Below the pieces are notes generated by a model. The model was not told the DNA's origin. It ran no database searches and saw nothing but the letters and a program-made list of their open reading frames with translations. Shown one piece after another: positions 26,675 to 64,000 of a DNA stretch of 64,000 nt. Both the position numbers and the translations under genes were made by a program. This DNA comes from Eledone cirrhosa (taxonomy: Eukaryota): NCBI GenBank assembly GCA_964016885.1, contig OZ024744.1:29202001-29266000 (forward strand). The letters run 5' to 3'. Positions within the stretch are counted from its first letter, which is position 1, and every line of letters starts with the position of its first letter.

Positions 26675-26855
26675 GGGCGGTGAATGGGCAGTATCGGTAG
26701 AAGGTCGGACATGCTTTCCAGCATAGTTACGTCCCTTTACGATCTGAATTCAAATCCTGCTGAGGTTAACTTTGCCTTTCAACCTTACAGGGTCGATAAA
26801 ATACCAGTAATGTACTGGAGTAATTGCTGGCCTTTTGCCAAAAGTAGAAACAATT
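26675..26855 (+). mobile_element. tRNA-derived SINE
   Basis: Same family; ends ccttttgccaaaagtagaaacaatt. Confidence 0.85.
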
Positions 26856-27110
26856 ATATTATAGATTATCGTCATTACCATTATTATTTGCGCGTTATCA
26901 ATGCATTACCAAGCGCAACTCTGTGCACCTTCAGTATGTGCAGTGTGTGGAGGTGTTTGTTCTATTGTATTGAGAGTAATCTTCCTAATGTGTGTGCTGC
27001 CTAGTAGTTCTATTTTTTTGTATGTTGTATATATTTGTGAGTCCTGGAGTTTTGGTTATGTTGTGTCTGCGTGCTTTATTATAATTATTGTTATTATTAT
27101 TATCATTATT

Positions 27111-27166
<56 letters not shown>

Positions 27167-27780
27167 GAGGAGACTTTGGGCGTCGACGAAAATCAACTAG
27201 CCAATCTCTTTGGAAGAACTTTCGGGCAGGGGCCTATCGACAACTCCCAGAAATCCCTGGTCTGGCAGTGCTACCGAGGAGCTTTGCCAGTTAGGGATAA
27301 ACTCTACAGGCATGGAAGTGCCGTCAGCCGGGCATGTCCAAGATGCGAGCAGAGCGAGGAAACCGTCATCCACGCACTCGTCCAGTGTCCGAGCATTGCT
27401 GACTTGTGGGTTTATGTCGAACATCTGCTGTTGCGTGTAGAACGGATCGGGCTATCAGCTGAGTCCATCGTGATGATTTCCGACCCTCCTCCTTTAGCCG
27501 GGAAGGGCAGGCAGTTTTTATCTGTCTGGTGGCCATGGCGAAAGAGATCGTGTGGTGGAAGCGTTTGAAAGGGCTGAAGACGAGCACTTACCTCTTCGGT
27601 GATGCCCTGAGTATGCACCTGTAAATTGAAGGTGAAAAATTGGGAGAGGGCTCTTCCTCTAGTGGTCAGGGTCACCGTGTCTTTTTTAATGGGCTTTCTC
27701 CACGAGTGTCCCTCGGAAGTGTCCCCCCATTTGGAAACTTTTTTTTTTTTTTTTCTTATGTCATTTCCTGTTTTTTTCAA
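27167..27780 (+). mobile_element. 5'-truncated Tx1 copy (ORF2 CCHC end + part of 3' UTR) after (ATT)n(GTT)n
   Basis: ETLGVDENQLANLFGRTFG...CPRCEQSEETVIHALVQC, near-identical to 48450-49140. Confidence 0.9.
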
Positions 27781-30700
27781 CAGTTACCTCGTTTTCAACC
27801 GTTCTAAACCTTTTATTCAAGTTTTATACTTGATAAAATTTAGAAGAAGTGACCCACCTAATACAAGAGTTCATTCGTAAATAATACGGCACTTCTAACA
27901 CAAACAACACAAACAATAACACCAACAACAACACCATCAATAACAACAGCAACAACAAAAATAACAGCGGTAAGGTCGAGAACGACAATAACAAAAATAA
28001 AAGCGGTAAGGTCGAGAACGACAATAACAAAAATAACAGCGGTAAGGTCATGAACGACAATAACAATGACAATAACAACAGCCACAACAACAATAATAGG
28101 CAGGAACAGTATCAACAAAAACAACAATAATAACAACAGCCACAATAACAGTAACAGCAGCAACAGTATCAATGAAAACAACACCAACAACTGTACCAGC
28201 GAAAAGAACAACAATGACACCGATACCTGTAATAGCGACCTCAGCACCACCAGTAAGACCAGTAGCAGCAGCAATAGTGGTGCTGCTGAAAAAGGGACCA
28301 CTTCTTTTGCAGGTGTCGCCCGAAATATAGAAACAGTGTTAGTCACAGAGGACGAGATGGCAGTCGCAAGGGCCATGGTGACAAGAAGCGCCAATGGAGT
28401 CTCCCTGAAACCTCCACCCGGTTTTTTCAAGGACCAGCAGCTACGAACGGTGACTTACCGCACCGTAAGCAAAATCTCACATCGAGTGGAGAGAGCCACG
28501 GAGGCTCAAATCCAAAAGGCCTTGGGCTGTGTCTGGGAACGCAAAACCCACATTACCCGAGGCAGAAGGTACGCCACAGTAGACGTACTTCCCCCACCAC
28601 CACCACCACCACCACCACCACCACCACACACCCCACCCCAAGAGGCGAAGTCTCACCCCTTGGAAACCCTAAAGAGTGAGGAGATAGTCTTGGTGCCCGC
28701 CTACAGGAGGCAGAAAATTGTGAGGGTCAAAGTGACCCAGGTCCCGCCCAACGTGCCCATACCTTGGGTGGCCGCGACTGTACTGGCTGAAATCGAGGAG
28801 AAGACCACCATACTGCAAATACAGAGAATGGGAAGAGAGAACTGATCAGGAATAGGCATGCAAATGCTAATACAGATTGATCAGGAGTGTATCGAGGCCA
28901 TCCCAGACATCATAGACATCGAAGAAGGACTCCAACTCCCTATAATTGTGGAAGAAAGTCGCCCAAAGTGATATCTCTGTAGGCAGAAGGGTCACCTCAG
29001 GGCCTTCTGCCCGCAGAAGATAGCCAAGAAGAGGGCGCCCTTCCTTCCGATCCGCTACTGCCAAGAGCAGGGCAGGCAACAGAGGCAGAAGACCCTTCCA
29101 TGGTGAGTAGGAGCAGTGGTGGAAACACCAATAGTCGCAGTAGCCACACTAGCGACAAAATTGCGGGCTCCGCTACCACCACCAACAACAGTGGAGCTCA
29201 TACCCCTCCCAGATGCCACGGAATCCGACAAGGGGTATGAGGTGGGAGTCAAGTGGCAAATGGTCTGCCACAAAAGCCAAAAGAGGAAAAACCCCTTAGC
29301 TTCACCCTCCAAAAGCGAAGACAGACAAAGAGGGGGAAAGGCTGCAAGGAGACTTTCAGCAACACCACCACCATCACCACCACAAGCATCACCACCAACA
29401 ACAACCACACCACCAGTATCACCAAAAAACACCAACATCGCAAACACAACAAAACACACACACCCAACGACAACAAGAAAACAGCAACTAAAACGCACCC
29501 ACTACCCACCCCAAAGTACACAGCCATAAACATGGCAAAAAAAGAACTCCTACAACATATAAAGCAGCACACAGACAACACAGAAAAAAACTACTACACT
29601 CCACCAACACCAAGAACTCTCCCGACAAACAAACATCATTGAAATCAAAATAGAACATTACAAACTTTTAAAACAAAAATTCCCCAACGCAGTTGGAGAC
29701 TTCAGAGGGTCGGTTACCAAGAGGATATACACTGACATCCTCTTGGAAACACCCATAACCAGCCAAAGGGACCGTTCTACTGTCCCTTCACCACACGATC
29801 AAGGTAAGTGACCCTTTTTCACTTGCCCCGTTTCTCATTCAACATGGCCGTACTTAGAATAGGCAGTATAAATGTACGTGGCCTGGGGTCATCTTGGAAG
29901 CAGGGTCAACTGCTCAACGACCTCAGATCACTAAACATAGATGTGGTTGCCATCAGTGAAACGAGAATCTCCGAAGCACGAGCCTTCGCACCAATCTTAG
30001 GCGGCTACGATGTATACGCATCTCCCAACCATCCAGGATTGGGGATGGGTAGCAGTGCTTTTTCGGAGAGGCTTGGATCTCGCCATACGGACCATCTTCC
30101 TGGACCCAGAAGGTAAGTCGGTGGTGCTGGACGTGACCGGCAGCGAAGGCAATGCTTTCAGGCTAGTAGCCGTCTACGCCCCAACTGGGGTAGGACGACC
30201 AGATTTCTTCAGATGTCTAGAGACCTTTCTTGGAACGTCCCGCTCTTTAGTGTTAGTGGGCGATTGGAACGGTATCTTAGATGCACGCTGGAATTATGTG
30301 GGGCTAGTAGACAGGGCAGGAGGGTGTAAAAGCCTCAGCAACCTGCTCAGACGTTTTGAACTGTCTGACAGGTATAGACTGGATTATCCGAATGTGCCAA
30401 TGTGGACATGGGAAAACCGCATCGGGTCATCCAGATCGTATTTAGATAGGGTATTCTGTAGGGAAACAGATAAGGCTTGTGTAGGTTGTCCACAATTTAA
30501 AGTAGTCGACTACACGGACCACAAATTTGTGAAATGTGAAGTTGACTTAGATTGACTCCATAGGCAATGGCCCGGCTACTGGAAGCTGAACGCGTCGTTC
30601 CCGACGCGCAAAGCTTACAGAGACCGGATTAGCGAATTAGTTAAGCGTGCGTTGACGGGTGCGATCGTCAACAACAGGTGAAAAAGGCTATTAGAGTAGA

Positions 30701-32968
30701 ATCGTTAAGGTTTAGTAAAGGAGTAGGGAGAGAGGAAAATAGAGCAGAGGGAGAGTTAGTTAGAAAGCTAGAAGAGGCGTTTAGGACAGGCATCGCAATC
30801 TACGTGTTTGCGGCGAGCTTGGCACTCGACCAATTCCTCAACGCAAAGCTTGATGGCTGCGATTTCAGAGCTAGAGCGCGTGCTCTAAGACACAAGGAGA
30901 CGAAAGACGTCAATCGGGCCGGATGGAGGAGGCGCGACGAGGTTACAAGTCTACAATTCGGTCTTTGCCTGATCAAAACCGACGCATGTTGTTCGAACCC
31001 GAACAGATGTGTGCGGCGGTCCAGATCGGAGTATGGACTTCGGTGCATACTTCGACGGACTGCCGCGGCTCACGACAACCACCGCGCATTGTTGCGAAAA
31101 GCCGATAGCAGCAGGTGAAATACAGGAAGCGATATCTGACTGCACGAGGGGTAAATCACCAGGTTTGGATGGTCTGCCCTACGAGCTGTATGCGTATATG
31201 CTAGACTTGTTCGGCGACCTCTTGGCAGATGTCTACTGCTACTGCCAGTAGAACGGGAGCATTGCCAGTTTTGTGATCCGGGGAGCGGTGGTGCTGTTGA
31301 GAAAAGACCCGAACAAAGGGGACGTTATAGACAACATCAGTCCTACAATTCTGTTAAACACAGATTTCAAGATTTTGGTCAAGATGTTAGCAACGAGATT
31401 GGCGCTTGTCATCAGTGTTCTGGTAGGAGAGGCGCAGACCTGCGCTATTCCGGACAGATTCATCCACAACAACCTCCATCTCATGCGATAGATCATAGAG
31501 AGGTGGTTGAGTAACCTGGCATGGGTGGGGCACTGATCAACTTGGATCAATCTAAAGCATTTGATAGGGTCGATCATCGGTACCTGGCTGCGGTCCTCCA
31601 GGCAGCCAGCTTCGAGCCCGTTTTTAGGGGCTGGTTCGCTGCGATGCACAGCGACATCTGCTCGATGGTGAGGGTAAATGGTCACATGTCGCAACCTTTC
31701 AGCATCATGAGCTCGGTCCGCCAGGGTTGCCCCTTCTCATCACTCTTGTACTTACTGACCCTCAAGCCGTTACTGCACAAATTGGAGACGAAGAGGTGGG
31801 TCCGACGCGTACTGGGATGCGGGATATCCGTGTCAGCTTACGCCGACGGCGTCAAGTGGTGGTGTCGAGCATCAAACACGTCCAGATGCGCGACACCACT
31901 CTCAAGGAATACGATCGGTGACAGGAGGAAAGATAAACCAGGAAAGGTCGGTGGGCTTGCAGCTCGGCACCTGGGGAGGAAAGTCCATGCGGTCCTACAG
32001 CGTCGTGGGGCGTTGGACGGACGGACCGGTTAAATTGCTCGGAGTCTGGTTTGGACCGGACCTCCAGATAGAGAAAAACTGGTGCGAAGTGACGAGCAGG
32101 GTGGCCTCCCTCACCCAGAAATGGGCCGAGAGGAGCGCCTTCTCTTCCGATTTTTATGGACAGGACGTACTCCCATGGTCACACGATCCATTTGCTGTCA
32201 ACACCCATTGCGTGGAGGACTAGGCATGCCGTGGCTGATGATGCGTAAGCATGCGCTGAGGCTGCGACATCTCTGGTGCTTCCTTGGTGGTGAACAGGTG
32301 TGGTCCCCTTTTTCCAGACGCGCTTTTCCGCAGCTCGTCTCCTTGGCGGAGCTGAAGTCCTGGAATAGGAAAAGACCAAGGGATAGCACTTGGAAGCTGG
32401 AATATGTCTCCAAGCGCTCACTGCCCTGTACAAGCTGGGCACTATTATCGGTGGGTCATACTCCTCGGCGTTCTATAGAGGGTTAGTGTAGGGAAAGAGA
32501 GACGAGGTCCTCGGGGAGATCCTGGGCGTCGAAGACGATCAGCTATTCGCTGTCTTCAAGAGAACTTTCAGCCCGGCGCCTATGGACAGCCTCAAGAAAT
32601 CCCTGGCCTGGCAGTGCTACAGGGGAGCGTTGCCGGTTTGGGATAAGCTCTACAGACACGGAGGTGCTGTCAGCTGAGCCTGTCCAAGATGCGCGCAGGG
32701 CGACGAAACCGTCCTGCACGCACTCGTTCAGTGCCCGAGGACTGCTGACTTGTTGAGCTACATCGAACAGTTGCTGTCGCGTGTAGAACCGAACCGGCTA
32801 TCATCTGAGACGGGAAGGGCAGGGAATTTGTATCTGTCTGGTGGCCATAGTGAAAGTGATAGTGTGGTGGACGCGTTTGAAAGTGTTGAAGACGAGCACT
32901 TACCTTTTCGGTGATGCCTTGATTAACTTTTTCAAATTTCATTTGACAAGGAAAATCAGTGTAGAGAG
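27781..32968 (+). mobile_element. Degenerate near-full-length Tx1 element A (ORF1 ~27900-29810; ORF2 from ATG 29844)
   Basis: ORF1 SFAGVARNIETVL..RATEAQIQKALG. APE GSINVRGL/ISET/GDWN/YTDH. RT LDQSKAFDRVDH, YADG. Many stops and frameshifts. Confidence 0.9.
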
Positions 32969-32969
32969 G

Positions 32970-35941
32970 GTTGACTTAGATAGGCTTATAGACAGGGACC
33001 CGGCTACTGGAAGCTTCACGCGTTGTTAACAGAGCGCAAGGCCTACAGACACCGGATTAGCGAACTAGTTAAGCGGGCGTTGACGAGGGCCATCGTCAAC
33101 AACAAATAGTGGTTTGCTCTGAAAAGAGCAATTAAAATAGAGTACATTAGGTTTAGTAAGGGGTTAGCAATAGAGAAAAATAGAGCTGGGGAGAAATAGT
33201 TAAAAAATTAGACGAGGCGCTTAGTAAAGGCATCGCGACCGACGTGCTTGCGGCGAAATTGGCCCTTGACCAATTCTTCAATGCAAAGCACGAATGCTGC
33301 GTTTTCAGAGCTAGGGTGCGTGCTCTCATACACGAGGGGAGGAAAGCTGTTCGATGGGCTCGAGTGGCGGAGGCGCGTAGTGGCAACAAAGCCACGATCC
33401 GGTCTATGGTGGACCACGACGGGCGCACGCTTCTCGATCCCGGGCAAGTGTGTGAAGCTTTTCAGCGTGAAGCTTTTCAGTTGTTCGGGGTAGCGGCGGG
33501 CCGGATCGATGGATGGACTTTACTGCCTACCTCGAGTGGCGGAGGCGCGTAGTGGCAACAAAGCCACGATCCGGTCTATGGTGGACCATGACGGGCGCAC
33601 GCTCCTCGATCCCGGGCAAGTGTGTGAAGCTTTTCAGTTGTTCGGGGTAGCGGCGGGACGGATAGAGGGATGGACTTTAGTGCCTACTTCGACGGACAAC
33701 CGCGGCTCTCGGCCACAGAGGCGGAATGTTGCGAAAAGCCGATAACAGCCGCTGAAGTACGGCAGGCAATGATTGGCTGCACAATGGGTAAATCGCCTGG
33801 TTTGGATGGTCTGTCCTATGAACTTTACGTACACATGCCAGACTTGTTCGGAGGCCTCTTGGCGGACGTCTACTGCAACTGGCAACAGAACGAGAGAATT
33901 CCCAGCTCTGTGAGCCGAGGAGCGGTGGAGATGCTGAGAAAGGATCCGAACAAGGGGGATAACATAGAAAATTTCAGGCCCATAACTCTGCTAAACACAG
34001 AGTTCAAGATTTTGGCCAAGCTGCTAGCAAAGAGGTTGGCGCTTGTCGTTGGTGGTCTGGTGGGAGAGGCGCAGACATGCGCCATTCCCGACAGATCCAT
34101 CCACGACAACCTCCACCTCATGCGATACATCATAGAGAGGGTAGCTAAGGAACCTGGCACGGGTGGGTCCTTGATCAATTTATATCAGTCGAAAGATTTC
34201 GATAGGGTCGACCATCGTTACCTAGCGGCAGTCCTGAGGGCGGCTGGCTTTGGGCCCTTCTTCAGAGGCTGGATCGCTGCCATGCACAGCGACATCTGCT
34301 CTGTGGTGAGAATGAACGGTCACCTTCGGAATCGTTCAACATCATGCAATCGGTCCGCCGAGGATGTCCCCTCTCGTCCCTCTTGTACGTATTGACTGCA
34401 CAAACTGGAGACGTTGAGGCGGGTCCCGCGCGAACTGGGATGTGGAAGATCCGTGTCAGCATATGCAGGCGATGTCACCGTAGTGGTGTCGAACGCCAAA
34501 CACATCGAGGTGATCGGCACTACACTAAAAGAATACGAAGCGGTAACAGGAGCAATGATCAACTAGGAAAAGTCGGTGCGCCTGCAGCTCGGCACCTGGA
34601 GAGGCAGGTCCATGCCGTCCAACAGCTTCATCGGGCGCTGGACGGACGGACCGTAAAATTGGTGACGAGGAGGGTGGCTTCTACACCCAGAAATGGGCAG
34701 AGAGGAAGCTATCCCTGAAAGGTCGAGCGGAGGTGGCGAATGCGTACATTGCGTCCGTCATCTGCTACCGCCTGACCGTCGTGCCTTGTCCTAAGCCTCG
34801 CCTGGCTACGCTGGAGCGTTTTCTCTTTCGCTTTTTGTGGAAGGGAAGTGCTCCGATGGTCAGGCGGTCCATCTGCTGTCAACACACGCTACTTGGAGGG
34901 CTGGGTATGCCGTGGCTTATGATGCGCAGACACGGGCTCAGGCTAAGACATCTCCACTTCTTCCTCGACGGTGATCAGTTTCGGTCGCCGTTTGCTAGAC
35001 GCGTATTTCCACAGCTCGTCACCTTGGCGGAACTGCAGTCCTGGGTCAAGCGAAGACCGAGCGGGAGCACTTGGAGACTAGCATGTCTTCAGGCGCTCAC
35101 AGCCCTCGACCAGTGGGGCAATGCGATCCGTGGAAACTCCACCTTGGCGTTCTATAGATGAAAATCAACTAGCCAATCGTCGACGAAAATCAACTAGCCA
35201 ATCTCTTTGGAAGGACTTTCGGGCCGGGGCCTATGGACGACTTCCAGAAATCCCTGGCCTGGCAGTGCTACCGAGGAGCTTTGCCAGTTCGGGATAAACT
35301 CTACAGGCATGGAAGTGCCGTCAGCCTGGCATGTCCGAGATGCGCGTAGGGCGACGAAATCGTCCTGCACGTACTCGTCCAGTGTCCGAGCATTACTGAC
35401 TTGTGGGTTTATGTCGAACACCTGCTGTCACGTGTATTACGGATCCGGCTATCATCTGAGTCCATCGTGACGATTGCCCCGCCCTCTTCCTGTAGCCGGG
35501 AAGGGCAGGAAGTTTTTATCTGTCTGGTGCCCATGGCGAAAGAAATAATGTGGTGGACGCGTTTGAAAGGGCTGAAGACGAGCACTTACCTCTTCGGTGA
35601 TGCCCTGATTAACTTTTTCAAATTTCATTTGAAAAGGAAAATTAGGGTAGAGAGGGAAGTACTCTCTTCCCAGCTTTTTGTTGAAGAATGGCAAGAATAT
35701 GCGCCTGTAAATTGAAGATAGAAAACTAGTGGTTAGGGTCACTGTGACTTTTTTAATGGGCTTTTTCCACGAATGTCCCTTGGAAGTCTCCCCCATATTG
35801 GGGAATTTTTTTTTGTTACATCCTCTGCTTTTATTATTTTTTTTACACGCAGAAATGCCCATTTGTACCGTCCTGTATTGTCCTGTATTGTCCTTAATGT
35901 TTTACTTTGTATCATCCCTTGTGGTTAATAAAGAAAGCATT
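32970..35941 (+). mobile_element. Degenerate Tx1 element B (ORF2 from the end of APE to the 3' end), same family as D
   Basis: High similarity to 46310-49295. Internal ~170-bp tandem duplication at 33361-33690. Ends cccttgtggttaataaagaaagcatt. Confidence 0.9.
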
Positions 35942-37135: not shown

Positions 37136-37675
37136 CTGTGGAGGAGAACGTTCATTTTCAAGACAGAGACTTATAAAAAATCAGCTTCGCAGCATAATGG
37201 GGTAGCAGCGTTTGAACTGGCTTTCACTCATGTGTATGGAAAATGAAATCCTGAAAACCATTGACTTCAAGCCATTTATAAAGCAATTCTCTTCAAAGAA
37301 ATTTTGCAAATATTTGTATTGACCACCTGATTATTAATAAATAGTTCATCGTAATTTGATACTGCGCGATCTGTATGCTTTACGAATTGAATATCATCTG
37401 TGCTGATTTTTTTGTGTTTTTCAAGGCTCATGTTATATTGTTCAAACGTTTGTGTTAATTAATCTTTGATGTACCACATGTTTTTAATGTATAAACACTG
37501 ATTTCGTTGGAAATACCAATACAATGAATATATCTTTAATTATATTGATCATTTGTATTTTTATTCCTGTGAGTGGTTGTGAAGGTAGGGGCCCCAGTGC
37601 TCAGCTTTGTCCGGGGGGGGGGGCTATAATGCTGTTAAAATGGCCTGTGTCCGGGGGGGGTGCCTATAATGCTGT

Positions 37676-43066: not shown

Positions 43067-43067
43067 T

Positions 43068-43267: not shown

Positions 43268-43480
43268 GAATGCCATGGTTGACGGAGGCTCGGCTCTGTA
43301 AGGTATAGTAATTTTTAACCGTTAAAACAATTGTAAATTGTTTAAAACTTGAACCAAATTGTTGATAAAGACACCCTCCTCCTCGTGAGAGGGGTCTTTC
43401 TGTCCGTTATTTGGCCCTTCGGGTTAAATAACCAGTTATTGGGGTTTTGTACCCAATATTCATTTTAAACAAAAATCAAC

Positions 43481-49030: not shown

Positions 49031-49290
49031 ACTAAAGGTGGAAAACTGGGAGAGGGCACTTGCCTTGGTGGTCAGGGTCATTGTGGCTTTTTACTGGGCT
49101 TTCTCCACAAATGTCCCTCCGAAGTCTCCCCCCTATTGGGGAATTTTTCATTGTTATTTTCATTGTTATTTTTGTTACATCCTCTGTTTTTGTTTTTTTA
49201 CACGCAGAAATGCCCATTTGTACCGTCCTGCATTGTCCTGCACTGTCCTTAATGTCTACTTTATGTAAACCCTTGTGGTTAATAAAGAAA

Positions 49291-49325
<35 letters not shown>

Positions 49326-49327
49326 AA

Positions 49328-49529
49328 GGCGGTGGACTGTTAGTATCGGTAGAGGGTCGAACGCCATGCTTTGACGTATAGAGTTACGGCCCTTCTATTC
49401 TGAGTTCAAATCCCGCCGAGGTAAACTTTGCCTTTCATCATTACGGTGTCGATAAAATAAAGTACGAGTAATGCACTAGATAATTGCTGGCCTTGTGCCA
49501 AACGTAGAAACAATTATTATTATTATTAT
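49328..49529 (+). mobile_element. SINE + (ATT)n tail between Tx1 D and Tx1 E
   Basis: Same SINE family; ends ccttgtgccaaacgtagaaacaattattatt. Confidence 0.9.
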
Positions 49530-49530
49530 A

Positions 49531-52500: not shown

Positions 52501-53581
52501 ACGGTAAACAGCTGTGGTCGCCGTTTGCCAGATGCGCTTTTCCCCAGCTCGTCTCCTTGACGGAGCTGCAGTCCTGCATCAGGAAGAGGCCGAGGGATAG
52601 CGCTTGGAAGCTGGAATGTCTCCAAGCGCTCACCGCCCTCTACTGGCTGGGCACTAGTATCGGTGGAACATCCACCTCGGCGTTCTATAGAGCGCTAGTG
52701 GAGGGAAAGAGCGACGACGTTCTCGGGGAGACTCTGGGCGTCGAAGACGATCAGCTGTTCGTTCTCTTCAAAAGAACTTTCAGACCGGGGTCTATGGACA
52801 AATTCCAGAAATCCCTGGCCTGGCAGTGCTACCGGGGAGGGTTGCCGGTTCGGGATAAGCTCTACAGGCACGGAGGTGCTGTCAGCCGCGCCTGTCCGAG
52901 ATGCGTGCAGAGCGACGAAACCGTCCTGCACGCAAACGTTCAGTGCCTGAGGATTGCTGACTTGTGGAGCTATGTCGAACAGTTGCTGACGCGTGTAGGA
53001 CTGATCCGGTTATCGACTGAGTCCATTGTGCAGATAGCCCCGCCATCCTCCTTTAAGGGGGAGGAAGGGCAGGCAGTTTTCATCTGCCTGGTGGCCATGA
53101 CGAAACAAGATTGAAAGGATTGAAGACGGACACTTTCCTCTCCGGTCAATCCCTGATTACCTTTTTTAAGTTTCACTTGAAGAGGAAAATCAGGGTGAAG
53201 AGGCAAGTGCTCTCTTCTAGTAAGTTTGTTGAAAGGTGGGTGAAAGTGGCAAGTCTGGTCCGAGATAACGGGCCCGCTCTGAGTATACGCCTGTAGACTG
53301 AGGAGTTGGAAAAGTGAGAGAGGGTGCTTGCTCTGGTGGTCAGGGTAGCCGTGCTATTTTTGTGTGGTTTTCACCACGAGTGACCCTCGGAGTTTTCCCC
53401 CTTCTTGGGGAATTTTTGTTGTTTGGATTTTTGGGGGGATTTCTAGCCCGATTTTGTTATAACCTGTTTACACGATCAAAACCCACTTTGTATCGTCCTG
53501 TACCGTTCTGTGCCGTATCTAATGTTTTTCTTCGTGTCAGCCCTTGTGGCCAATAAAGAAACCATTATTATTATTATTATT
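49531..53581 (+). mobile_element. Tx1 element E: duplicated ~200-bp 5' UTR, disrupted ORF1, most of APE and the RT N-part deleted
   Basis: atcgtggaagtatacacgtcgc repeats at ~49531 and ~49734. Deletion joints at ~51440 and ~51484. ORF2 remnant to 53296. Ends cccttgtggccaataaagaaaccattatt. Confidence 0.88.
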
Positions 53582-53810
53582 GGGGCGGTGGATTGGCAGT
53601 ATCGGTAGAGAGTCGGACGCCATGCTTTCCAGCATAGTTACGTCCCTTTACGGTTTGAGTTTAAATCCCACCGAGGTTAACTTTGCCTTTCATCCTTACG
53701 GAGTCGATAAAATAAAGTACCAGTAATGTACTGGGTAATTGCTGGCCTTGTCCCAAAAGTAGAAACAATTATTATTATTATTATTGTTGTTATCATTATT
53801 ATTATTATTA
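53582..53810 (+). mobile_element. SINE + (ATT)n tail after Tx1 E
   Basis: ggggcggtggattggcagtatcgg...ccttgtcccaaaagtagaaacaattatt. Confidence 0.92.
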
Positions 53811-53869
53811 ATTTTTTTTTACCAATTCAGTGATGTTCCAAAACAATATAAAAGAGATAATTGGTAATA

Positions 53870-56800
53870 ATGGAGGGGCCCCAGGGTATCACAGCCTGAG
53901 CCCGCTCGGCATCGTGCCACTGTAATAGAGCCAAACAAAGCATTTAATATTGGCTGCTGGAACGTACGGACCATACTGGACAGGGATTCCTCGGAACGTC
54001 CAGAACGAAGGACCGCTCTTGTTGCAAAGGGCTCCGACGTTACGATCTTGACATCGTGGCTTTATCTGAGACGAGGTTAGCTGGAGATGGTCATCTTACA
54101 GAATTTTGTGGAAAATATACATTCTTCTGGAAAGGAAGAGATGAAGGAACCAGAAGAGAGGCTGGGGTAGCATTTGCTGTTAAGACTGCTCTTGTGCATA
54201 AATTAGAAGAATTTCCAGTGGGGATTAGTGAGCGTCTTATGTCCATGAGAATTCCGCTGGACAAAGGAAGATATGCATCCCTGGTGAGTTTGTATGATGC
54301 AACTATGAATTCTGTCGATGAAGATAAAGTGTCCTTTTACCATGCCTTGAAAGGTGTTTTAAGAAATATCCCTCAGGCAGACAAAGTCATCGTGCTTGGT
54401 GACTTTAATGCTAGAGTGGGTAGGGATTTTAACACATGGAATGTAATCGGAAGGCATGGAGTGGGAAAGTGTAACAACAATGGTATGCTCCTGCTGCAGA
54501 TGTGTGAGGAGCTGGATCTGTGTGTTACCAACACTATGTTCCAGCAAGAGAACAAATATAAGACCACATGGATGCATCCTGCATCTAAGGAATGACATCT
54601 TTTGGACTACGCCCTAGTCAGGATGCGTGACAGATGGGATGTGCAGTTTGTTCGTGCTCTTCGTGGAGCTGAGTGCTGGATGGACCACCGCCTGGTACGC
54701 GAAAAAGTGAAATTAATCACTAAACGTAAAATCCGGGTTCCTGGTGTTGCCCTGCCCAAAAGATTGAATGCTACTCGTCTTAAGGATAAAAATGTGAAGA
54801 GGACATTGGAAGAAGAGATGCAGGTTGCAGATCTTGGTGAGGATTGGCGACCCTTAAAAAGTCGGTTTATGATGTAAGCAGGCGTGTTCTGGGATTGATG
54901 CAGAGAAAACATCAAGACTGGTTTGATGAGAATGATGTACATATAGAAGACTTGTTGGCTGATAAGAGGCGTGCTCTGTCACCCTACTTGACGGCAAAAC
55001 CACAGGAGAAGAATATGTTGCATAAGGTACTCAAGGATGTGAAATCACGTGTGAGGCGGAGTCTTTCTCAGATGAAAGATCAGTGGTGGAGTGAGAAGGC
55101 TGGTGAGATACAAGCTACGTCAGATTCCAATAACACAAAGTTGTTTCTTGCGTGAGGTTTATGGACCGTTTTCTTCTCTGGTGACACCGCTTCGCAGCAA
55201 GGATGGTAAGAAACTTCTTCGTGACTCACAAGGAATTCTGTGAAGGTGGCGAGAGCACTTTGATGAACTTTTGAATCAGCCGTCTGTCGTCAATGAAGAT
55301 TTCCTCAATCTCATTCCTGAAAAACCTGTGAGGTAGCGCTCGCAGAACCTCCGACGCTTGTGGAGGTTGCAGTAGCTATCTCGAAGCTGAACAGTGGAAG
55401 GTCTCCAGGTATGGATGGCATACATGCAGAGCTCTTACAATATGGTGGTGAGAGACCTCTGCAACATCTTCACTCTTTCTTTGGCAGGATATGGGGTAGT
55501 GAATCCTTACCTGAGGACTACAGAGATGCAGTAATGGTAGTCTTGTACAAGGGAAAGGGTAACAGGAATGATTGTGGAAACTACAGAGGTATATCATTGT
55601 TTTCCGTCGTAGGGAAAAATTTTATGTAGGGTGTTTCTGGACCGTCTGCTGACACACATTGCAGATTGTGTGCTTTCTGAAAGTCAATCTGGTTTAGGTG
55701 CTGGACGCGGCACTACTGATATGATCTCAGCTAGACAACTCCAGGAGAACAAGGAACAAGGCTTGGATCTGTATCAGGTTTTGTCGATCTGACAAAAGCT
55801 TTCGATACTGTTAACAGAAATGCATTGTGGAAGGTTCTCCAGAAACTTGGTTGCCCTGATAGGTTCCTTGTTTGGTTAGGTCTTTCCATGACGTGAAGAA
55901 GGCTTGGGTTAATGTCAGAAGTAACATGTCGGAGCCTATCTCAGTAAAAGAAATGGAGTGAAACAGGGGGATATTTCAGCACCGATCCTGTTTGCCATGT
56001 ACTTTGGTTTTCTGTATTGCATTCAGGAATTTGTTGCATTCAGGAATTTATTGCATTCGGGCGCTTTGTTGCACTCAGAGAGTGGTATGCAGCACATTTT
56101 GAATGCATTTTCTGATGCTTGCACTGCCCTAAGATTGACTGCCAGTCTCAAGAAAATCGTCGTCATGTACCAACCTTCCCCTGGTAAGTAGTACAGTGAG
56201 TCAAATATCTATGTGTATGGTAAACGACTTGGAGTGGTTGTCTACCTGGGAAGCACTGTCAATCGAAACAGCAACTTTGATAATGAAATTCCACTCAGGA
56301 TTAGGAAAGCAGGTGATGCTTTCGGAAAGCTAGAAAGGTGCCTCTGGGGTCGGCGATACATATGCAAGAAGACAAAGGTAAAGGTGAACAAGGCATGTGT
56401 GCTCTCTTCTCTTCTTTATGCCTGTGAGACCTGGTCACATACCGACACAACCTTAAACAACTGGAGCATTTCCATGGCGTTCACTGGAGGGACCATATCA
56501 GTGATGTCGAGATCGTGGAAATATCTCTGTGTGACAGTATAGAAGCTCTTGTGCTTAAGCAAAGACTCCGTTGGAGTGGTCACCTTGTCAGAATGAAGAA
56601 TTCTAGAATACCAAAACAACTCTTTTATGGAGAGTTAATTAAAGGAAAACGACCTCCACATAAACCAAAAAATAGGTATAAGGATTCCTTGAAAGCCTCT
56701 TTGAAAGACGCTAACATGTCTGCTGATACATTGGAAAATGTAGCTGCTGATCGTAATAAATGGAGAAAGACTGTGTATGAGGGGTAAGTTGCCTTTGAGG

Positions 56801-57190
56801 CATCTCGAATCGCATACGAGAAAGTAAAGCGGGATGGGCATTACTGTTGCATTTCCAGACAGCGAAGGTCTTCCTATGGTGCTGACATGCAGCGTCTGTG
56901 TGAGACTCTGCCTAAGCAAAGCTGGACTCGAAAGTCATCTTCGCAGTCATAAAATAAGACCAGTGGTTGACTACCAGGCTGCTGTTGGAGATGCTACTCA
57001 TCATGCTTGCAAAGCATGTGGTAGAGAATGTTAATCAGCAGGAGGGCTCAAACGACATGCAAAAGTTCATGAACTCCAACCACAGCCGACTATTCCCAGT
57101 GAATGTTTTGGTTGCCAAATCTGTGCAAAACATTTTAGATCATTGGCTGGGCTAAAAATCCACATTCGATCTCAGCCCGTTAATTGTCAT
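53870..57190 (+). mobile_element. Degenerate RTE (BovB-like) LINE with C-terminal C2H2 fingers
   Basis: NIGCWNVRT..RPERRTALVA, VALSETRLAGDG..YTFFWKG, LGDFNARVG, CGNYRGISL, DLTKAFDTVNR, RLRWSGHLVRM..RIPKQLFYGEL. Confidence 0.9.
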
Positions 57191-57244
57191 TCTGTGTGTG
57201 TGTGTGTGCGTATGGGTGTATGTGTGTGTGTATGTATATATATG

Positions 57245-57279: not shown

Positions 57280-57329
57280 ATATATTTTATTATTATCATT
57301 GGTCACATCGGAAGTCTTTTTGCTCGCTC

Positions 57330-60300
57330 CCAGGAAGTCGCTTTATTTACCTGTCACAAATTATTATTGTTAAATTTTTGTTATTGTGTAAGGGACATAA
57401 GCCATTGGACTTTGCCCTGCTAAGAGGAAAGTATAATATTTGGGCCTTTTGGCCCAATTATTTGAACATTTTACTTTCAAAAATTATCAAATAAATATGG
57501 CTGAGCCATGCCACCAACAACACCAACAGCAACACTGCAAATTGCACCGAAAACAACAACAACGGTGGCACCAAAAACACAACCAACTACAACAGTGATA
57601 ACAGCAACATCACCAACAACACCATTTGTAGCAGTAGCAACAGCAACAGCACCAACAACAAGACCAGTAGCAGCAGCACTGAAAGAGGGGCCACTTCTTT
57701 CGCAGGTGTGGCCCGAAATATAGAAACAGTGCTCGTCACAGAGGAGGAGATGACAGTCACAAGGGCCATGGTGACAAAAAATGCCAATGGAATTTCCCTG
57801 AAACCTTCACCCGATTTTTTCAAGGACCAGCAGCTACGCACGGTGACTTACCGCACCGTAAGCAAAATGTCACATCGGGTGGAAAGAGCCACGGAGGCTC
57901 AAATCCTAAAAGCCTTGGGGTGCGTCTGGGCGCGCAAAACCCACATCACCCGAGGCAGAAAGTACTCCACAGTAGACGTACTTTTTGCTACACCCCAAGA
58001 GGCGAAGTCTCACTCTTTGGAAACCCTAAAGAGTGAGGAGATAGTTTTCGTGCCCTCCTACTGCGGTCAAAGTGACCCAGATCCCGCCCGACATGCCCAT
58101 ACCCTGGCGGGCCACGTCTGTCCTTGCTGGAATCGAGGACAGGACCACCATACTGCAAATACAGAGAATGTGAAGAGAGAACTGGTTAGGTATAGGCATA
58201 CAAATGCTAATACAAACTGATCAGGAGTGTATCAAGGCCATCTCAGATATCATAGACTTCGAGGAAGGACTCCAACTCCCTATAAGCGTGGAAGGAAGGC
58301 GCCCAAAATGTTATCTCTGTGAGCAAAATAGTCACCTCAGGGCATTTTGCCCGCAGAAGACAGCCAAGAAGAGGGGGCCCCTCCACCCGACGCCTGATCC
58401 GGTGCTACCGAGAGCAAGACAGGCAACAGAGGCAGAAGACCCTTCCACCGTGAGTAGGAGGGCAACGTCCGTGGCACCCGTACCAAGGCCACAGACAACT
58501 AAAACAGCGGCAGCAGTGGCGGCAACACCAGTAGCTACATTTGCAGTAGCTGCACCAGCAACAAAATCGTCAGAGGGGGCTCCACTACCACCACCAACAG
58601 CAGTGGAGCACATACCCCTCCCAGACGCCACGGAATCCGACATGGAGTCTGAGGCGGGAGTGAAGTTGTAAAAGGTCTGCCACAAAAAAAAACAAAAAAC
58701 GAAAGAGCCAGTTAGCTTCACCCTCCAAAATTGAGGACAAACAAAGAAGGGTAAAGCTGCAAGGCGTTTTCAGTAACGCTACCACCAACACCACCACAAG
58801 CATCATCACCAACAACAGCCACACCACCACCAACATCACCAAAAACACCAACATCGCAAACACAACAAAGCACACACACCCAAGAGCAACAACAAGAAAA
58901 CAGCAACAAAACCACCACCACCACCCCCACACCGACCCCCACCCCCCAAAAAAGTACACAGCCATAAACATTGCACACCAAAGATTAATGGAATACATAA
59001 AACATCACACCGATATTTCAGACGTAAATTACCACACCCCACCAATACCAAGAGCATTACCTAAAAATATTAACATTGTGGAAATTGAACTCGAAGATTA
59101 TAAACAATTAAAACAAAAATCCACAACTCAGTTGGGGATTTCAGGGGGTCACTCTCCAAGAGAATCTATAAAGGTATCATCTTGGAGACACCCATGACCA
59201 GCGGAAAGGACGGTTCTACTGTCACTTCCCCAAACGATTAAGGTAAGTGATCCTTTCTCACTTACCCCGTTCCTCATCCAACATGGGGGTGCTTAGAATA
59301 GGCAATATAGATGTACGCGGCCTGGGGTCATCTTGGAAGCAGGGCCACCTGCTCAACGACCTCAGGTCACTAAACATAGATGTGGTGGCCATCAGCGAGA
59401 GCAAAATATCCGAAGCACGAGACTTCGCACCGATCTTCGGTGGCTACGATGTATACGCATCTCCCAGCCATCTGGGAGCGGGAGACGGAGTTGCTGTGCT
59501 TTTTCGGAGAGGCTTGGATCTCGCCATACGGGCCATCTTCCTGGACCCAGAAGGTAAGTCAGTTTTACTGGACGTGACCGGCAGCGAAGGCAATGCTTTC
59601 AGGCTAGTAGCTGTCTAAGTCCCAGCAGGGGCAGCACGACCAGATTTCTTCAGACGTCTAGAGACCTTTCTGGGAACGTCCTGCTCTTTAACGTTAGTGG
59701 GTGACTGGAACGGTATCTTAGATGCACGCTGGGATTATGTGGGGCTAGTAGACAGGGCAGAAGGGTGTAAAAGCCTCAGCAACCTGCTCAGACGTTTTGA
59801 ACTGTCTGATAGGTATAGACTTGATTATCCGAATGTGCCAATGTGGACATGGGAAAACAGTATCGGGTCATCCAGGTCGTATTTAGATAGAGTATTCTGT
59901 AGGGAAACAGATAAGGTTAGCCTAGGTTGTCCACAATTTAAAGTGGTCGACTACACGGACCACAAATTTTTGATCTGTGAAGTTGACTTAGATAGACTCC
60001 ATAGGCAAGGGCACAGTTACTGGAAGCTGAACGCGTCGTTCCCGGTGCGCAAAGCTTACAGAGACCGGATAAGCGAATTAGTTAAGCGGGCGTTGACGGG
60101 TGCGATCGTTAACAGCAGGTGGTGGTTTACTCTGAAAAGGGCAATTAGAGTAGAATCGATAAGGTTTAGCAAAGGTGTAGTGATAGAGGAAAATAAAGTA
60201 GAGGGTGAGCTAGTTAGAAAGCTAGAAGAGGCGTTTAGGACAGGCATCAGACCGACGTGCTTGCGGCGAGATTGGCACTCGACCAATTCTTCAACGCAAA

Positions 60301-62684
60301 GCATGAAGGCTGCGTTGTCAGAGCTAGAGGTCGTACTCTTAGACAAGAGGGACGAAAGCCGTTCAATGGGCCTGAGTGGTGGAGGCGCCACGTGGCAACA
60401 AGTCCACATTTCGGTCTTTGCTTGATCAAAACGGGCACATGTTGATCGAACCCGAGCAGATGGGTGAGGCTTTTCAACAGCACTTTGCTCAATTGTTCGA
60501 GAGCGACGGCCGGCTGGATCGGAGTATGGACTTCGGTGCATACCTCGACGGACTGCCGTGGATCTCGACGACCGCAGCGCATTGTTGCGAAAAGCCGATA
60601 ACAGCAGGTGAAATACGGGAAGCGATGTCTGACTGCACGAGGTTCGGAAGGTCAGCACTACGAACTTAATGCGAATATGCCAGATTTGTTCGGCGACTTC
60701 TTGGCCGATGTCTACTGCAACTGGCAGCAGAACAGGAGCATTCCCAGTTTTGTGAGCCGGAGAGCGGTGGCGCTGCTGAGAAAAGACCCGAATTAGGGGG
60801 ACGTTATAGACAACTTCAGGCCCATAACTCTGATAACCCCACAGATTAGGATTTGGGCCAAGGTGTTAGCAAAGAGATTGGTGTTTGTCGTCGGTGATCT
60901 GGTGGGAGAGGCGCAGGCATCCGCCATTTCGGACAGATCCATCGACGACAACCTCCACCTCATGCGATACATCATAGAGAGGGTGGTTGAAGAACCTGGC
61001 ATGAGTAGGGCCCTGATCAACTTGGATCAATCTAAAGCATTTGATAGGGTCGACCATCGGTACCTGGCTGCGGTCCTCAATGCAACCGGCTGGATCGCTG
61101 CGATGCACAGCGACATCTGCTCGATTGTGAGGGTGAATGGTCACTAGTTACAGCCTTTCAGCATCATGCACTCGATCCGCTAGGGTTGTCTTCTCTCGTT
61201 CCTTTTATACGTATTGGCCCTCGAGCCGTTACTGCACAAATTGGAGACGATGAGGGGTGGTCCGACGCGTACTGGGATGCGGGAGATCCATGTCAGCTTA
61301 CGGTGACGACATCACCACACTCATCCAGAAATGGGCCGAGAGTAGGCTGTCTCTGAAAGGTTGGGCGGAGGTGGCGAATTCGTACATCGCAGCCGTCATC
61401 TGCTACAGCCTGGGCATCGTACCTTGTCCCCGCCCAACTCTAACCAAAATGGAGCGACTTCTCTTCCGCTTTTTGTGGTAGGGACGTGCTCCCATGGTCA
61501 GACGATCCATCTGCTGTCAACACCCGTTGTGTGGAGGACTAGGCATGCCATGGCTGATGATGCGCAAACATGCGCTGAGGCTGCGACATCTCTGGTACAT
61601 CCGTGGCGGTAAACAGCTGTGGTCGCCGTTTGCCAGATTCGCTTTTCCTCAACTCGTCTCCTTGGCGGAGCTGCAATCCTGGATCAGGAAAAGACCAAGG
61701 GATAGCGCTTGGAAGCTGAAATGTCTCTAAGCGCTCATTGCCCTCTACTAGCTGGGCACTACTATTGGTGAAACATCCGCCTCGGCGTTCTATAGAGGGC
61801 TGGCTAGTGGAGAGAAAAGAGCGACGACGTTCTCGGGGAGACCCTGGGCGTCGTGACGATCAGCTGTTCGCTCTCAAGAGAACTTTCAGCCCGGTGCCTA
61901 TGGACAACTTCCAGAAATCCCTGGCCTGGCAGTGCTACCGGGGAGCGTTGCCGGTTCGAGATAAGCTCTACAGGCACGGAAGTGCTGTCAGCCGAGCCTG
62001 TCCGAGATGCGCACAGAGTGACGAAACCATTGTGCACGCATTCGTTCAGTGTCCGAGCATTGCTGACTTGTGGAGCTCTGTCGAACAGCTGCTGTCGCGT
62101 GTAGGACGGATCCGGTTATCGACTGAGTCCATTGTGCAGATATCCCCGCCATCCTCCTTTAAAGAGGAGGAAGGGCAGGCAGTTTTATCTGCCTGGTGGC
62201 CATGGCGAAAGAGATTGTGTGGTGGACAAGGTTGAAAGGGTTGAAGACGGACACTTTCCTCTCCGGCCAGTCCCTGATTAACTTTTTCAAGTTTCACTTG
62301 AAGAGGAAAATCAGGGTGGAGAGGCAAGTGCTGTCTTCTAGTAAGTTTGTTGAAAGGTGGGTGAAAGTGGCGAGTCTGGTCCGAGTGAACGGGCCCGCTC
62401 TGAGTATGCGCCTGTAGACTGAGGAGTGGGAAAAGTGGGAGAGGGCGCTTGCCCTGGTGGTCAGGGTGGCCGTGGTCTTTTGTGTGGTTTTCGCCATGAG
62501 TGACCCTCGGAGTTTACCCCTTTTCGTGGAATTTTTGTTGTTTTAATTTTTTATTTCTATCTTGTTATAACCTGTTTACATGGCCAAAACCCACTTTGTA
62601 TCGTCCTGTACCGTTCTGTGCCGTCTCTAACGTTTTTCTTCATGTTAGCCCTTGTGGCCACTAAAGAAACCATTATTATTATTA
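57330..62684 (+). mobile_element. Degenerate full-length Tx1 element F (same family as A; ORF2 from ATG 59283 to 62417)
   Basis: ORF1 ARNIETVLVTEEEM.., knuckle CYLCEQNSHLRAFC, APE and RT motifs. Ends cccttgtggccactaaagaaaccattatt. The 5' boundary is approximate. Confidence 0.9.
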
Positions 62685-62881
62685 TGGATTGGCAGTATCG
62701 GTAGAGGGTCGGACGCCATGTTTTCCAGCATAGTTACGTCCCTTTACGGTCTGAGTTTAAATCCCGCCGAGGGTGACTTTGCCTTTCATCCTTACGGGGT
62801 CGATAAAATAAAGTACCAGTAATGTACTGGGTGTTTGCTGGCCTTGTGCCAAAAGTAGACATAGTTATCATTATTATTATT
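62685..62881 (+). mobile_element. SINE + ATT-rich tail after Tx1 F
   Basis: tggattggcagtatcgg...ccttgtgccaaaagtagac, then ttatcattattatt. Confidence 0.9.
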
Positions 62882-62889
62882 GTATTTTA

Positions 62890-63660
62890 CCCTACATGTC
62901 GGCTCTTGTGGCTAATAAATGAAATCAGCACGACGGAGAGATCCTGGGCATCGAAGATCAGCTGTTTGCTCTCTTCCGGAGAACTTTCAGCCCAGGGCCT
63001 ATGGATAACTTCCAAAAATCCCTGGCCTGGCAGAGCTACCGGGGAGCGTTGCCGGTTCGAGATAAGCTCTACAGGCACGGAAGTCCTGTCAGCCGAGCCT
63101 GTCCGAGATGCGCGCAGAGCGACGAAACCGTCATGCACGCACTCGTTCAGTGTCCGACATTGCTGAATTGTGGAGCTATGTCGAACAGTTGCTCTCACGT
63201 GTGGGACTGATCCAGTTATCGACTGAGTCCATTGTGCAGATGGTCTCGCCGGCTTCCTTCGAGGAGGACGGGCAGGAAGTTTTCATCTGCCTGGTGGCCA
63301 TTGCGAAAGAGATTGTGTGGTGGACAAGGTTGAAAGGGTTAAAGACAGACACTTTCCTCTTCAGCGAATCCCTAATTAACTTTTTCAAGTTTCACTTGAA
63401 GAGGAAAATCAGGGTGGAGAGGCAAGTGCTGCTTTCTAGCAAGTTTGTTGAAAGGTGGGTGAATGTAGCGAGAATGGTCCGAGTGAACGGGACCGCTCTA
63501 AATATACGCCTGTAGTTTGAGAAATGGAAAAATTGAGAGAGGGCGCTTGCCATGGTGGTCAGGATGGCCGTGGTCTTTTGTGTGGTTTTCGCGACGAGTA
63601 ACCCTCGGAGGTTTCCCTCCTATTGGGGAATTTTTTATTGTTTCAATTTTCATTTTTATT
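62890..63660 (+). mobile_element. Solo family-C Tx1 terminus (62890-62927) joined to a 5'-truncated Tx1 copy G
   Basis: ccctacatgtcggctcttgtggctaataaatgaaatca matches 43025-43062. Then MDNFQKSLAWQ...ALNIRL* and a partial 3' UTR. Confidence 0.85.
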
Positions 63661-63720
63661 GTTTATATATATATATATGTTTCTATGTCTCTTTCTTCTT
63701 TTCTTGTCGATGACGAACCA

Positions 63721-64000
63721 TAAGTTACCCACCTAGGTCCCAAGAGGGGGAGACTTCTCAATATTCGGGCTTTAAGCCCGAATATTCAGATTTATTTTTT
63801 AAAACTTCGAAAATATCCCCCCCCCCCTCCGCCTAAAAAAAGAGAAATTTTCGACCTTAAACGGTAAACAACGTTCAGGTAAAAAGTTAAAAAACAACCA
63901 CTATAGATCTCACCACAACTACTACTACTACCACAGACATGTCTGCCGACCATTCCACTGAATGTGAAGGCAAATCACAAGGGTTACCATCACAACCGCT
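63721..64000 (+). mobile_element. 5' end of another family-C Tx1 element (H), runs off the window
   Basis: Matches 37676-37935, including the aatattcgggct/agcccgaatatt hairpin and the ORF1 start acagacATG. Confidence 0.88.

What the first reader, a model, noticed from the sequence alone, without database searches (positions are those of the whole stretch)
26675..64000. 37-kb head-to-tail Tx1/SINE array joined through (ATT)n: candidate self-extending, microsatellite-targeted LINE-SINE system
Seen: nine Tx1 copies or fragments from at least 3 divergent families, one RTE and five SINEs, all on +. All four uninterrupted 3' ends of long Tx1 copies (43066, 49323, 53581, 62684) go Tx1-(ATT)n-SINE-(ATT)n-next element. 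The fifth end (35941) is cut by a hAT insertion. Established: several Tx1-clade elements are sequence-specific (Koshi/Kibi for microsatellite or repeat targets, Dewa for tRNA spacers, Keno for U2). Inference: both partners insert into (ATT)n and each brings a new (ATT)n tail. The array would then grow with fixed polarity, like telomeric retroelement arrays. The strict alternation could alternatively mean Tx1 is targeted just upstream of Pol III A/B-box SINEs, or that Tx1+SINE moves as a read-through unit.
Basis: partly seen in the sequence, partly recalled or inferred. Interest (0 to 1): 0.82.

Follow-up and report, generated by a model that had tools for sequence, protein, structure and literature searches.

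The report
LINEs stacking in ATT microsatellites
Thousands of copies of a long jumping gene in this likely octopus-relative genome sit inside ATT repeats and stack head to tail, sharing those repeats with an unrelated jumping gene that lies the opposite way and with a short parasite that likely borrows the long gene's enzyme, so the neat long-short alternation seen in this window is a local outcome and not a rule.

Summary
The array is real and runs on to about +79 kb. Four Tx1-(ATT)n-SINE-(ATT)n junctions are confirmed, but only 4 of its 8 Tx1 3' ends carry a SINE.

Targeting holds genome-wide. 2,291 of 2,369 family-A heads (96.7%) follow (ATT)3. An RTE whose 5' region carries an internal (ATT)n gives empty and filled sites, with Tx1 in sense and Dong/R4-like LINEs in antisense.

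Alternation does not hold. Of 130 sampled Tx1 3' ends, 35 meet Tx1, 30 antisense Dong-like LINEs and 25 a SINE; 2 of 9 unrelated tracts also have one. Co-transduction and targeting upstream of SINEs are refuted.

The SINE is not microsatellite-specific. It lands at ATTA sites with a 16-bp duplication and adds no tail. It shares a small 3' hairpin with Tx1, so Tx1 is its likely carrier.

Verdict: a new target variant of microsatellite-specific Tx1-type LINEs (Kibi/Koshi-like), not a coupled LINE-SINE system. Tx1-clade membership was not tested by phylogeny. The scan found the same elements before on other pieces of this genome.

The parts
26675..26861 (+). SINE with its own target duplication, not next to a Tx1 3' end
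27076..27167 (+). (TTA)n(TTG)n tract at the left edge of the array
27168..27772 (+). Tx1 3' fragment (family-A-like), cut in the 3' UTR
27775..32970 (+). degenerate Tx1 copy (about 81% to the copy at 57301); first bases and 3' end lost
32971..35941 (+). 3' half of an old family-A Tx1, ending in one ATT that joins the next Tx1 head with no SINE
37675..43060 (+). family-C Tx1, degenerate
43061..43267 (+). (ATT)2 - SINE lacking its first 10 bases (43068-43240) - (ATT)9
43268..49292 (+). young full-length family-A Tx1 (98.7% to its best match). ORF1 43481-45247 is damaged (588 aa and C-to-Y in the zinc knuckle, against 697 aa in L095). ORF2 45611-49030 is open, 1139 aa, APE-RT-CCHC
49293..49527 (+). 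(ATT)10 - SINE (49326-49512) - (ATT)5; the SINE's duplication runs on into the bases after the tract
49528..53563 (+). internally deleted Tx1: distinct head with a 201-bp duplication, family-B 3' part
53564..53809 (+). (ATT)6 - SINE (53583-53767) - compound ATT tract that resembles the internal tract of the RTE 5' region
53810..57192 (+). degenerate RTE LINE; its 5' part ahead of the ATT tract is not found in the 70 kb upstream or in the window
57301..62671 (+). family-B Tx1, full length, degenerate, preceded by a short ATT tract
62672..62881 (+). (ATT)4 - SINE (62685-62866) - (ATT)4
62882..62927 (+). 46-bp family-C 3' end with no ATT and no SINE after it
62928..63663 (+). family-B Tx1 3' fragment
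63700..64000 (+). head of a family-C Tx1 that continues to about +69.3 kb; the array ends near +79 kb

Best explanation
The array is a pile-up of independent retrotransposon insertions in one (ATT)n landing pad: Tx1-type LINE families sit in ATT tracts in one fixed direction, likely because their enzyme nicks the AAT strand and primes there, and each insertion likely regenerates the pad by duplicating about 10-20 target bases. The steps are as follows. (1) Shown: full-length copies are flanked by (ATT)n and enter tracts that existed before. (2) Shown: informative short copies and the SINE have target duplications that start with ATTA and carry no extra tail. (3) Inferred: the ORF2 endonuclease nicks 5' of ATTA on the opposite strand and the RNA end pairs with it, which fixes polarity. 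(4) Shown: the same tracts also take Dong/R4-like LINEs in the opposite direction and a very abundant SINE. (5) Inferred: the SINE is copied by a Tx1 enzyme through a shared 3' hairpin, lands at any ATTA site, and builds up in old tracts. This window's array is mostly old, which likely explains its run of SINE spacers.
For: Targeting: 2,291 of 2,369 exact family-A heads follow (ATT)3; background is 91 such sites in 800,000 strand-positions. 47 of 48 full-length copies among the 100 sampled follow (ATT)3. Pre-existing target: among the first 30 RTE 5' tracts on C1, 23 are empty, 4 hold antisense Dong-like, 2 sense Tx1 and 1 a SINE scrap (with L293 counted empty and L307 and L311 read by eye). 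L311, L314 and L317 show both RTE halves around a Tx1; L317 has a duplication of about 27 bases and no added tail. Polarity and independence: 16 of 16 neighbouring 3' ends within 10 kb are on the same strand against 1.4 pairs expected, and array neighbours are mostly not each other's best match. SINE: 35 of 50 random copies have a duplication of 9 or more bases, median 16, 28 of 35 starting ATTA. In three loci the SINE's duplication contains Tx1 bases, so the SINE came later. SINE share rises with an age proxy, 6 of 62, 8 of 38, 6 of 15 (P = 0.01). Hairpin: loop CUUGU lies 16 bases before the ATT in 127 of 136 SINE ends and 88 of 122 Tx1 ends (33 more at 17), with swapped stem pairs; on nine window ends 85% of cells pair, covariation 0.49, 0 of 500 shuffles as high.
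Against: No biochemistry. Only 8 of 40 5'-truncated copies have (ATT)3 upstream and 10 of 40 abut an antisense Dong-like element with no ATT. Many look like later breakage, but this also fits part of the 5' ATT of full-length copies coming from the RNA. The hairpin has only 3-4 pairs, its swaps are about three independent events, and the loop and two inner pairs were part of my search patterns. Local-alignment P values for the SINE-Tx1 3' match run from 0.003 to 0.39 by pair. Other LINE families were not screened as carriers beyond two Dong-like ends and one RTE end. The control for SINEs after unrelated tracts is small (2 of 9). The flank samples are the first hits on contig C1, not a random draw.
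Confidence: 0.8

Rival explanations
1. Coupled LINE-SINE system: Tx1 and SINE take turns inserting into each other's new (ATT)n tails, giving strict alternation.
For: Four of four long intact ends in the window; SINEs after Tx1 ends are 25 sense to 1 antisense; shared 3' hairpin.
Against: 25 of 130 ends have a SINE, fewer than meet Tx1 (35) or Dong-like LINEs (30). 3 of 48 full-length heads follow a SINE. Same rate after unrelated tracts (2 of 9, Fisher P = 1). The SINE adds no tail.
Confidence: 0.04
2. Tx1 and the downstream SINE move together as one read-through RNA.
For: Adjacency and same strand.
Against: Two Tx1 copies identical over their last 300 bp carry SINEs only 87.7% alike with different start points. 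No link between Tx1 and SINE identity over 119 pairs (rho -0.05, P = 0.56). Nearest relatives carry a SINE in 5 of 24 cases, the base rate. SINEs have their own duplications.
Confidence: 0.02
3. Tx1 is tethered just upstream of Pol III (A/B-box) SINEs.
For: SINE heads follow Tx1 tails more often than the SINE's 2.45% genome share would give.
Against: 105 of 130 ends have no sense SINE; many of the SINEs present lack their heads (starts at 33-111); Tx1 fills RTE tracts with no SINE.
Confidence: 0.02
4. The enzyme has only a loose ATTA preference, and the strict (ATT)n context of full-length copies comes from RNA-target pairing at one or both ends (an AUU-bearing 3' end, or a 5' leader read in from the upstream tract), or from survival of insertions in such tracts.
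For: The SINE, with the same duplication signature, is mostly outside tracts (40 of 50). Short Tx1 copies sit at imperfect ATTA sites with 10-27-base duplications. 47 of 48 full-length but 8 of 40 truncated copies have upstream (ATT)3.
Against: By eye, 5 of 7 young (98% or more) truncated copies have ATT or an ATT-led duplication upstream. Flanking tracts in filled RTE sites (5+8 and 8+11 units against a median of 8.5 when empty) need little more than a duplication. The SINE's carrier is inferred.
Confidence: 0.35
5. Segmental duplication or assembly artefact.
For: No long read could be laid across the array. Tandem duplication does occur nearby: a 9.3-kb period in the Dong-like array at -46 to -22 kb and one repeated Dong truncation in the C1 55.44-Mb array.
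Against: Window copies are 65-91% alike and belong to several families; window SINEs are 85-94% alike; no N in 264 kb; similar arrays recur along C1.
Confidence: 0.03

Closest known systems
Kibi (TC)n and Koshi (TTC)n of teleosts; crocodilian Tx1 families in (TTCC)n/(TTTC)n (PMC4494074: passages and section 15; PMC3812793: passages)
   Same: Two-ORF APE-RT-CCHC LINE that inserts into a microsatellite; far exceeds that paper's 20% flank rule for target specificity (96.7%).
   Different: Target is (ATT)n, host is likely an octopod, there are more than 7,000 exact 3' ends (5,790 + 1,235), multi-family head-to-tail arrays form, and the target is shared with another clade. Relationship to Kibi/Koshi not tested.
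Dong (R4 clade), TAA-targeting in Bombyx, Anopheles and Biomphalaria (PMC3812793: passage)
   Same: Same microsatellite. Dong-like elements are present here (4,152 exact 3' ends of one family) and share the tracts.
   Different: The Tx1-type element uses an APE endonuclease and lies on the opposite strand. The Dong/R4 label for the antisense elements rests on recalled CCHC and restriction-like motifs translations, with no family search.
Crocodilian SINEU / Tx1-Mar pair (PMC4494074: section 16)
   Same: A SINE inferred to be mobilised by Tx1 enzymes and found at the same targets.
   Different: There the link rests on shared target and 5' heads. Here it rests on a shared 3' hairpin and duplication signature, and the SINE does not share the LINE's strict target.
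Stringent SINE-LINE pairs with a common 3' stem-loop (PMC3747384, PMC4824008: passages)
   Same: Conserved loop, variable stem with compensatory changes, fixed distance to the 3' end.
   Different: The hairpin is very short and shared homology covers only about 23 bases; no Tx1 partner was named in the passages I saw.
Telomeric retroelement arrays (HeT-A/TART/TAHRE, SART/TRAS; recalled)
   Same: Head-to-tail stacks in a simple repeat.
   Different: Interstitial, many loci, mixed orientation once Dong-like elements are counted, no sign of a host function.

Membership tests
Tx1 clade LINE | ORF2 with APE endonuclease, RT and C-terminal CCHC | tested here: met
   Pfam Exo_endo_phos, RVT_1, zf-RVT; motifs located
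Tx1 clade LINE | ORF1 with zinc knuckle upstream of ORF2 | tested here: met
   CX2CX4HX4C in the 697-aa ORF1 of L095; damaged in the window copy
Tx1 clade LINE | Belongs to the L1 group | tested here: met
   Best solved-structure match is L1 ORF2p over residues 4-855, E 2e-52, against R2 at 2e-21
Tx1 clade LINE | RT phylogeny groups with Tx1L/Kibi/Koshi/Keno and not other L1 lineages | not testable with these tools
Microsatellite-specific non-LTR element (rule of PMC4494074) | More than 20% of flanks are one repeat type | tested here: met
   2,291 of 2,369 heads; 47 of 48 full-length copies
Microsatellite-specific non-LTR element (rule of PMC4494074) | Inserts into a tract that was already there | tested here: met
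   Empty and filled RTE tracts
Microsatellite-specific non-LTR element (rule of PMC4494074) | Endonuclease cuts the repeat specifically | not testable with these tools
   Needs biochemistry
Microsatellite-targeted SINE | Most copies flanked by (ATT)n | tested here: not met
   40 of 50 random copies lack (ATT)3 on both sides
Stringent SINE-LINE pair | Shared 3' terminal sequence or stem-loop | tested here: met
   short, partly selected by the search pattern
Stringent SINE-LINE pair | Same insertion signature | tested here: met
   Duplications starting ATTA in both; few informative Tx1 cases
Stringent SINE-LINE pair | LINE protein mobilises the SINE in trans | not testable with these tools
   Needs a retrotransposition assay
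tRNA-derived SINE | tRNA-related head | tested here: inconclusive
   A- and B-box-like words visible; ARAGORN found no tRNA and Rfam gave nothing significant
Coupled alternating LINE-SINE array | SINE follows Tx1 3' ends as a rule | tested here: not met
   25 of 130; 4 of 8 in this array
3' transduction unit | Sister LINE copies share the downstream SINE | tested here: not met

The most novel reading that the evidence does not exclude
One Tx1-type enzyme has two targeting modes. It nicks any ATTA site when it copies the SINE, but full-length LINE integration needs an (ATT)n tract, so microsatellite specificity arises after the nick, in RNA-target pairing or 5' joining. Target duplications, SINE pile-ups and an RTE that carries its own ATT tract then seed self-renewing landing pads. 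Two unrelated LINE clades compete for these pads in opposite directions and can decapitate each other (10 of 40 truncated Tx1 copies are fused head to head with a Dong-like element).
Probability: 0.3. Interest if true: 0.7.

Novelty: new variant of a known kind. Interest (0 to 1): 0.48.

Why it matters
It adds (ATT)n to the targets of Tx1-type LINEs and shows two unrelated LINE clades converging on one microsatellite. The evidence is genome-wide, with empty and filled sites, not single loci. Many family-A copies are about 99% alike with an open ORF2 (17 of 27 examined have a frame over 1,100 codons), so the family can be assayed. Its likely SINE passenger shares the nick signature but not the strict target, which makes an open question testable: does the endonuclease or the RNA decide microsatellite targeting? 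It would also name a carrier for a SINE that covers about 2.5% of the sampled genome.

Tried and rejected
A DNA search of the own genome with the Tx1 3' UTR returned nothing because common words are skipped; exact patterns were used instead. Sequencing runs: no RNA holder listed and no long-read run listed. Laying four runs on 42300-54300 gave only short repeat-derived pieces and SINE-to-SINE joints that cannot be told from other copies, so neither the assembly nor an empty allele could be checked. Rfam and ARAGORN gave no class for the SINE. Protein search and the Atlas gave no Tx1-named relative. Whole-tail minimum-energy folds did not show the small hairpin consistently. The pair count used a structure string one column off and is void; one search is the corrected one. 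The RTE's missing 5' part was not found upstream of the window's RTE, so the idea that the left half of the array grew inside that RTE is unproven. Twenty more RTE reporter loci were not examined. One automated 'Tx1 antisense' call among the 100 ends (67525193) looks like a low-complexity hit. By eye, one more end is Tx1 (37108098) and one more is SINE (L183); the Fisher and orientation tests use 26 of 130. Rejected: strict alternation, read-through, Pol III tethering, segmental duplication as the origin, a telomere-like role.
Full report
Place and anatomy. The window is G000:C28:29202001-29266000 of a 3.0-Gb assembly. The best named protein hit is from Argonauta hians at 74%, so the host is likely an octopod. 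Self-comparison, Pfam and junction reading confirm nine Tx1-type copies or fragments plus a 46-bp scrap, one RTE and five SINEs on + between 26675 and 64000. The copy at 43268-49292 is young, with an open 1139-aa APE-RT-CCHC ORF2 and a damaged ORF1. L1-group affinity is shown. Tx1-clade membership is recalled, not tested by a tree.

The alternation inside the array. The fifth (35941) is Tx1-ATT-Tx1: the insertion sits a few bases inside the next head and no SINE is found there. The end at 62927 has no ATT or SINE. Flanking stretches show the array continuing to about +79 kb, with two more ends that meet antisense LINEs. So 4 of 8 terminal ends carry a SINE. A second array at -60 to -46 kb has three Tx1 copies joined by (ATT)n with no SINE.

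Genome-wide 3' ends. Exact patterns give 5,790 ends of families A/B and kin and 1,235 of family C. I examined the first 100 and the first 30 on contig C1. After the tract, the automated calls were: Tx1 sense 25 + 10, antisense Dong-like 28 + 2, SINE sense 15 + 10, SINE antisense 1, one doubtful antisense Tx1, other 30 + 8. In 400 kb of evenly spaced control windows the SINE gave 71 hits (2.45% cover). Of 10 listed (ATT)4+ tracts, two flanking one SINE and counted once, 2 of 9 are followed by a sense SINE (Fisher P = 1). This control is small. The SINE share rises with distance to the nearest relative: 6 of 62, 8 of 38, 6 of 15, over the 115 of 130 ends long enough to score. Four of the window's five long ends fall in the oldest class.

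Targeting. 2,291 of 2,369 family-A heads follow (ATT)3. 47 of 48 full-length copies among the 100 do so, and upstream of that tract lie antisense Dong-like ends (20), Tx1 tails (18), SINEs (3), sense Dong-like (1) or other (6). An RTE family carries an (ATT)n tract inside its 5' region, which gives empty and filled states. Among the first 30 such tracts on C1, 23 are empty, 4 hold antisense Dong-like elements, 2 hold Tx1 and 1 a SINE scrap. Seventeen further loci, chosen because no exact RTE body matched nearby, added 2 Tx1, 3 Dong-like and 12 empty. In L311, L314 and L317 both RTE halves flank the Tx1. Against a simple picture: only 8 of 40 truncated copies have (ATT)3 upstream, and 10 of 40 are fused to an antisense Dong-like element with no ATT. 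Eleven copies ran off the fetched stretch and one gave no alignment; these 12 were left out.

How arrays grow. Among the 100 ends, 16 neighbouring pairs lie within 10 kb (1.4 expected) and all 16 share a strand. Array neighbours are mostly not each other's best match, so most growth is by separate insertions; some tandem duplication also occurs. 5' and 3' tracts of full-length copies are of similar length (median 8 and 10 units, P = 0.24). Where the target is imperfect, Tx1 joins directly to a duplication that starts with ATTA. The pad is therefore renewed mainly by duplication; a short RNA tail is not excluded. From the other side, the automated call for the first 30 tails of one Dong-like family was antisense Tx1 9, sense Dong-like 7, antisense SINE 2, other 12 (4,152 exact ends).

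The SINE. It has 49,945 exact head matches. In control windows 35 of 50 copies with an intact 3' end have a duplication of 9 or more bases (median 16; 28 of 35 start ATTA), and 40 of 50 have no (ATT)3 on either side. It is an ATTA-site element with no tail of its own; tracts are dense runs of its site. In three loci its duplication contains Tx1 bases, so it arrived after that Tx1. Read-through is refuted. Its last 23 or so bases resemble the Tx1 end but not the two Dong-like ends or the RTE end (P 0.003-0.39 by pair for Tx1, 0.28 or more for the others). I had noted that resemblance before looking at earlier findings (note); the hairpin idea came from them. I then tested it: same loop, same spacing, swapped stem pairs. 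The hairpin is short and partly built into my patterns, so I put the partnership at about 0.65.

What is known. Tx1-clade Kibi and Koshi target (TC)n and (TTC)n, and crocodilian families (TTCC)n/(TTTC)n; SINEU is inferred to use Tx1-Mar (PMC4494074: passages, sections 15 and 16). Dong targets TAA, including in a snail (PMC3812793: passages). A 2026 Octopus vulgaris annotation lists recently active L1-Tx1 and Dong-R4 families, and the passages I saw give no targets (PMC13282606). PMC4640811, PMC4824008, PMC4758252 and PMC3747384 (passages) name no ATT-targeting Tx1 and no Tx1 partner for a cephalopod SINE. Eight searches listed no title or abstract start describing either. Kojima and Fujiwara 2004, Repbase and all supplements were not seen and may already record this target.

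Earlier scan notes. 68 notes on this genome fit 'Tx1 ATT' and eight were shown; none was listed near this window. They reach similar readings from single loci and are not independent evidence.

Verdict. This is a new target variant of a known kind of element, in a multi-clade microsatellite pile-up. Interest 0.48.

Noticed in passing
L281-L310, 5' flanks; window 57193-57286: The RTE family with the internal (ATT)n tract is often preceded by (TATG)n or (TA)n, and the window copy ends in (TG)n/(TA)n. It may be a second microsatellite-associated LINE that spreads ATT landing pads; 388 and 420 exact matches for its two halves.
   Followed up: partly
C1 loci at 16306940, 42602917, 47419870, 53061205, 55086028, 65451225 and others; L236: Ten of 40 truncated Tx1 copies are fused head to head with an antisense Dong-like element with no ATT between them, as if one insertion removed the other's head.
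   Followed up: partly
G000:C28 about 22-46 kb left of the window (L043-L045): Head-to-tail array of Dong-like LINEs joined by (AAT)n with a 9.3-kb duplicated period, next to a minus-strand Tx1 array.
   Followed up: no
L146-L154, L160; C1 10.32-10.34 Mb: The SINE's first 45 or so bases form tandem satellites of up to many kb.
   Followed up: no
L141:1400-1700; L015: Inverted SINE pairs sharing a target duplication.
   Followed up: no
RTE 5' region, e.g. L281 about 750-907: The RTE 5' region contains an antisense SINE-related segment 71-79% like the window SINEs.
   Followed up: no
window 11145-21547: A 10-kb satellite with a 40-bp unit.
   Followed up: no
window 21437-22786 +: 449-codon open frame with a C-terminal GIY-YIG domain, probably a Penelope-like element (label recalled).
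   Followed up: no
window 1645-2017 +: SINE-(ATT)n(GTT)n followed by a short Tx1 3' scrap and another ATT/GTT tract: a small version of the same pile-up.
   Followed up: partly
window 43371-45600, run X4 (organism B): Contigs of a differently labelled organism match family A at about 98% (1,516 bases with 26 differences), so the family is shared with a close relative or moved recently.
   Followed up: no
window 49531-49932: 201-bp tandem duplication at the head of the fourth Tx1 type; this head was not found in any other locus held at the time.
   Followed up: partly
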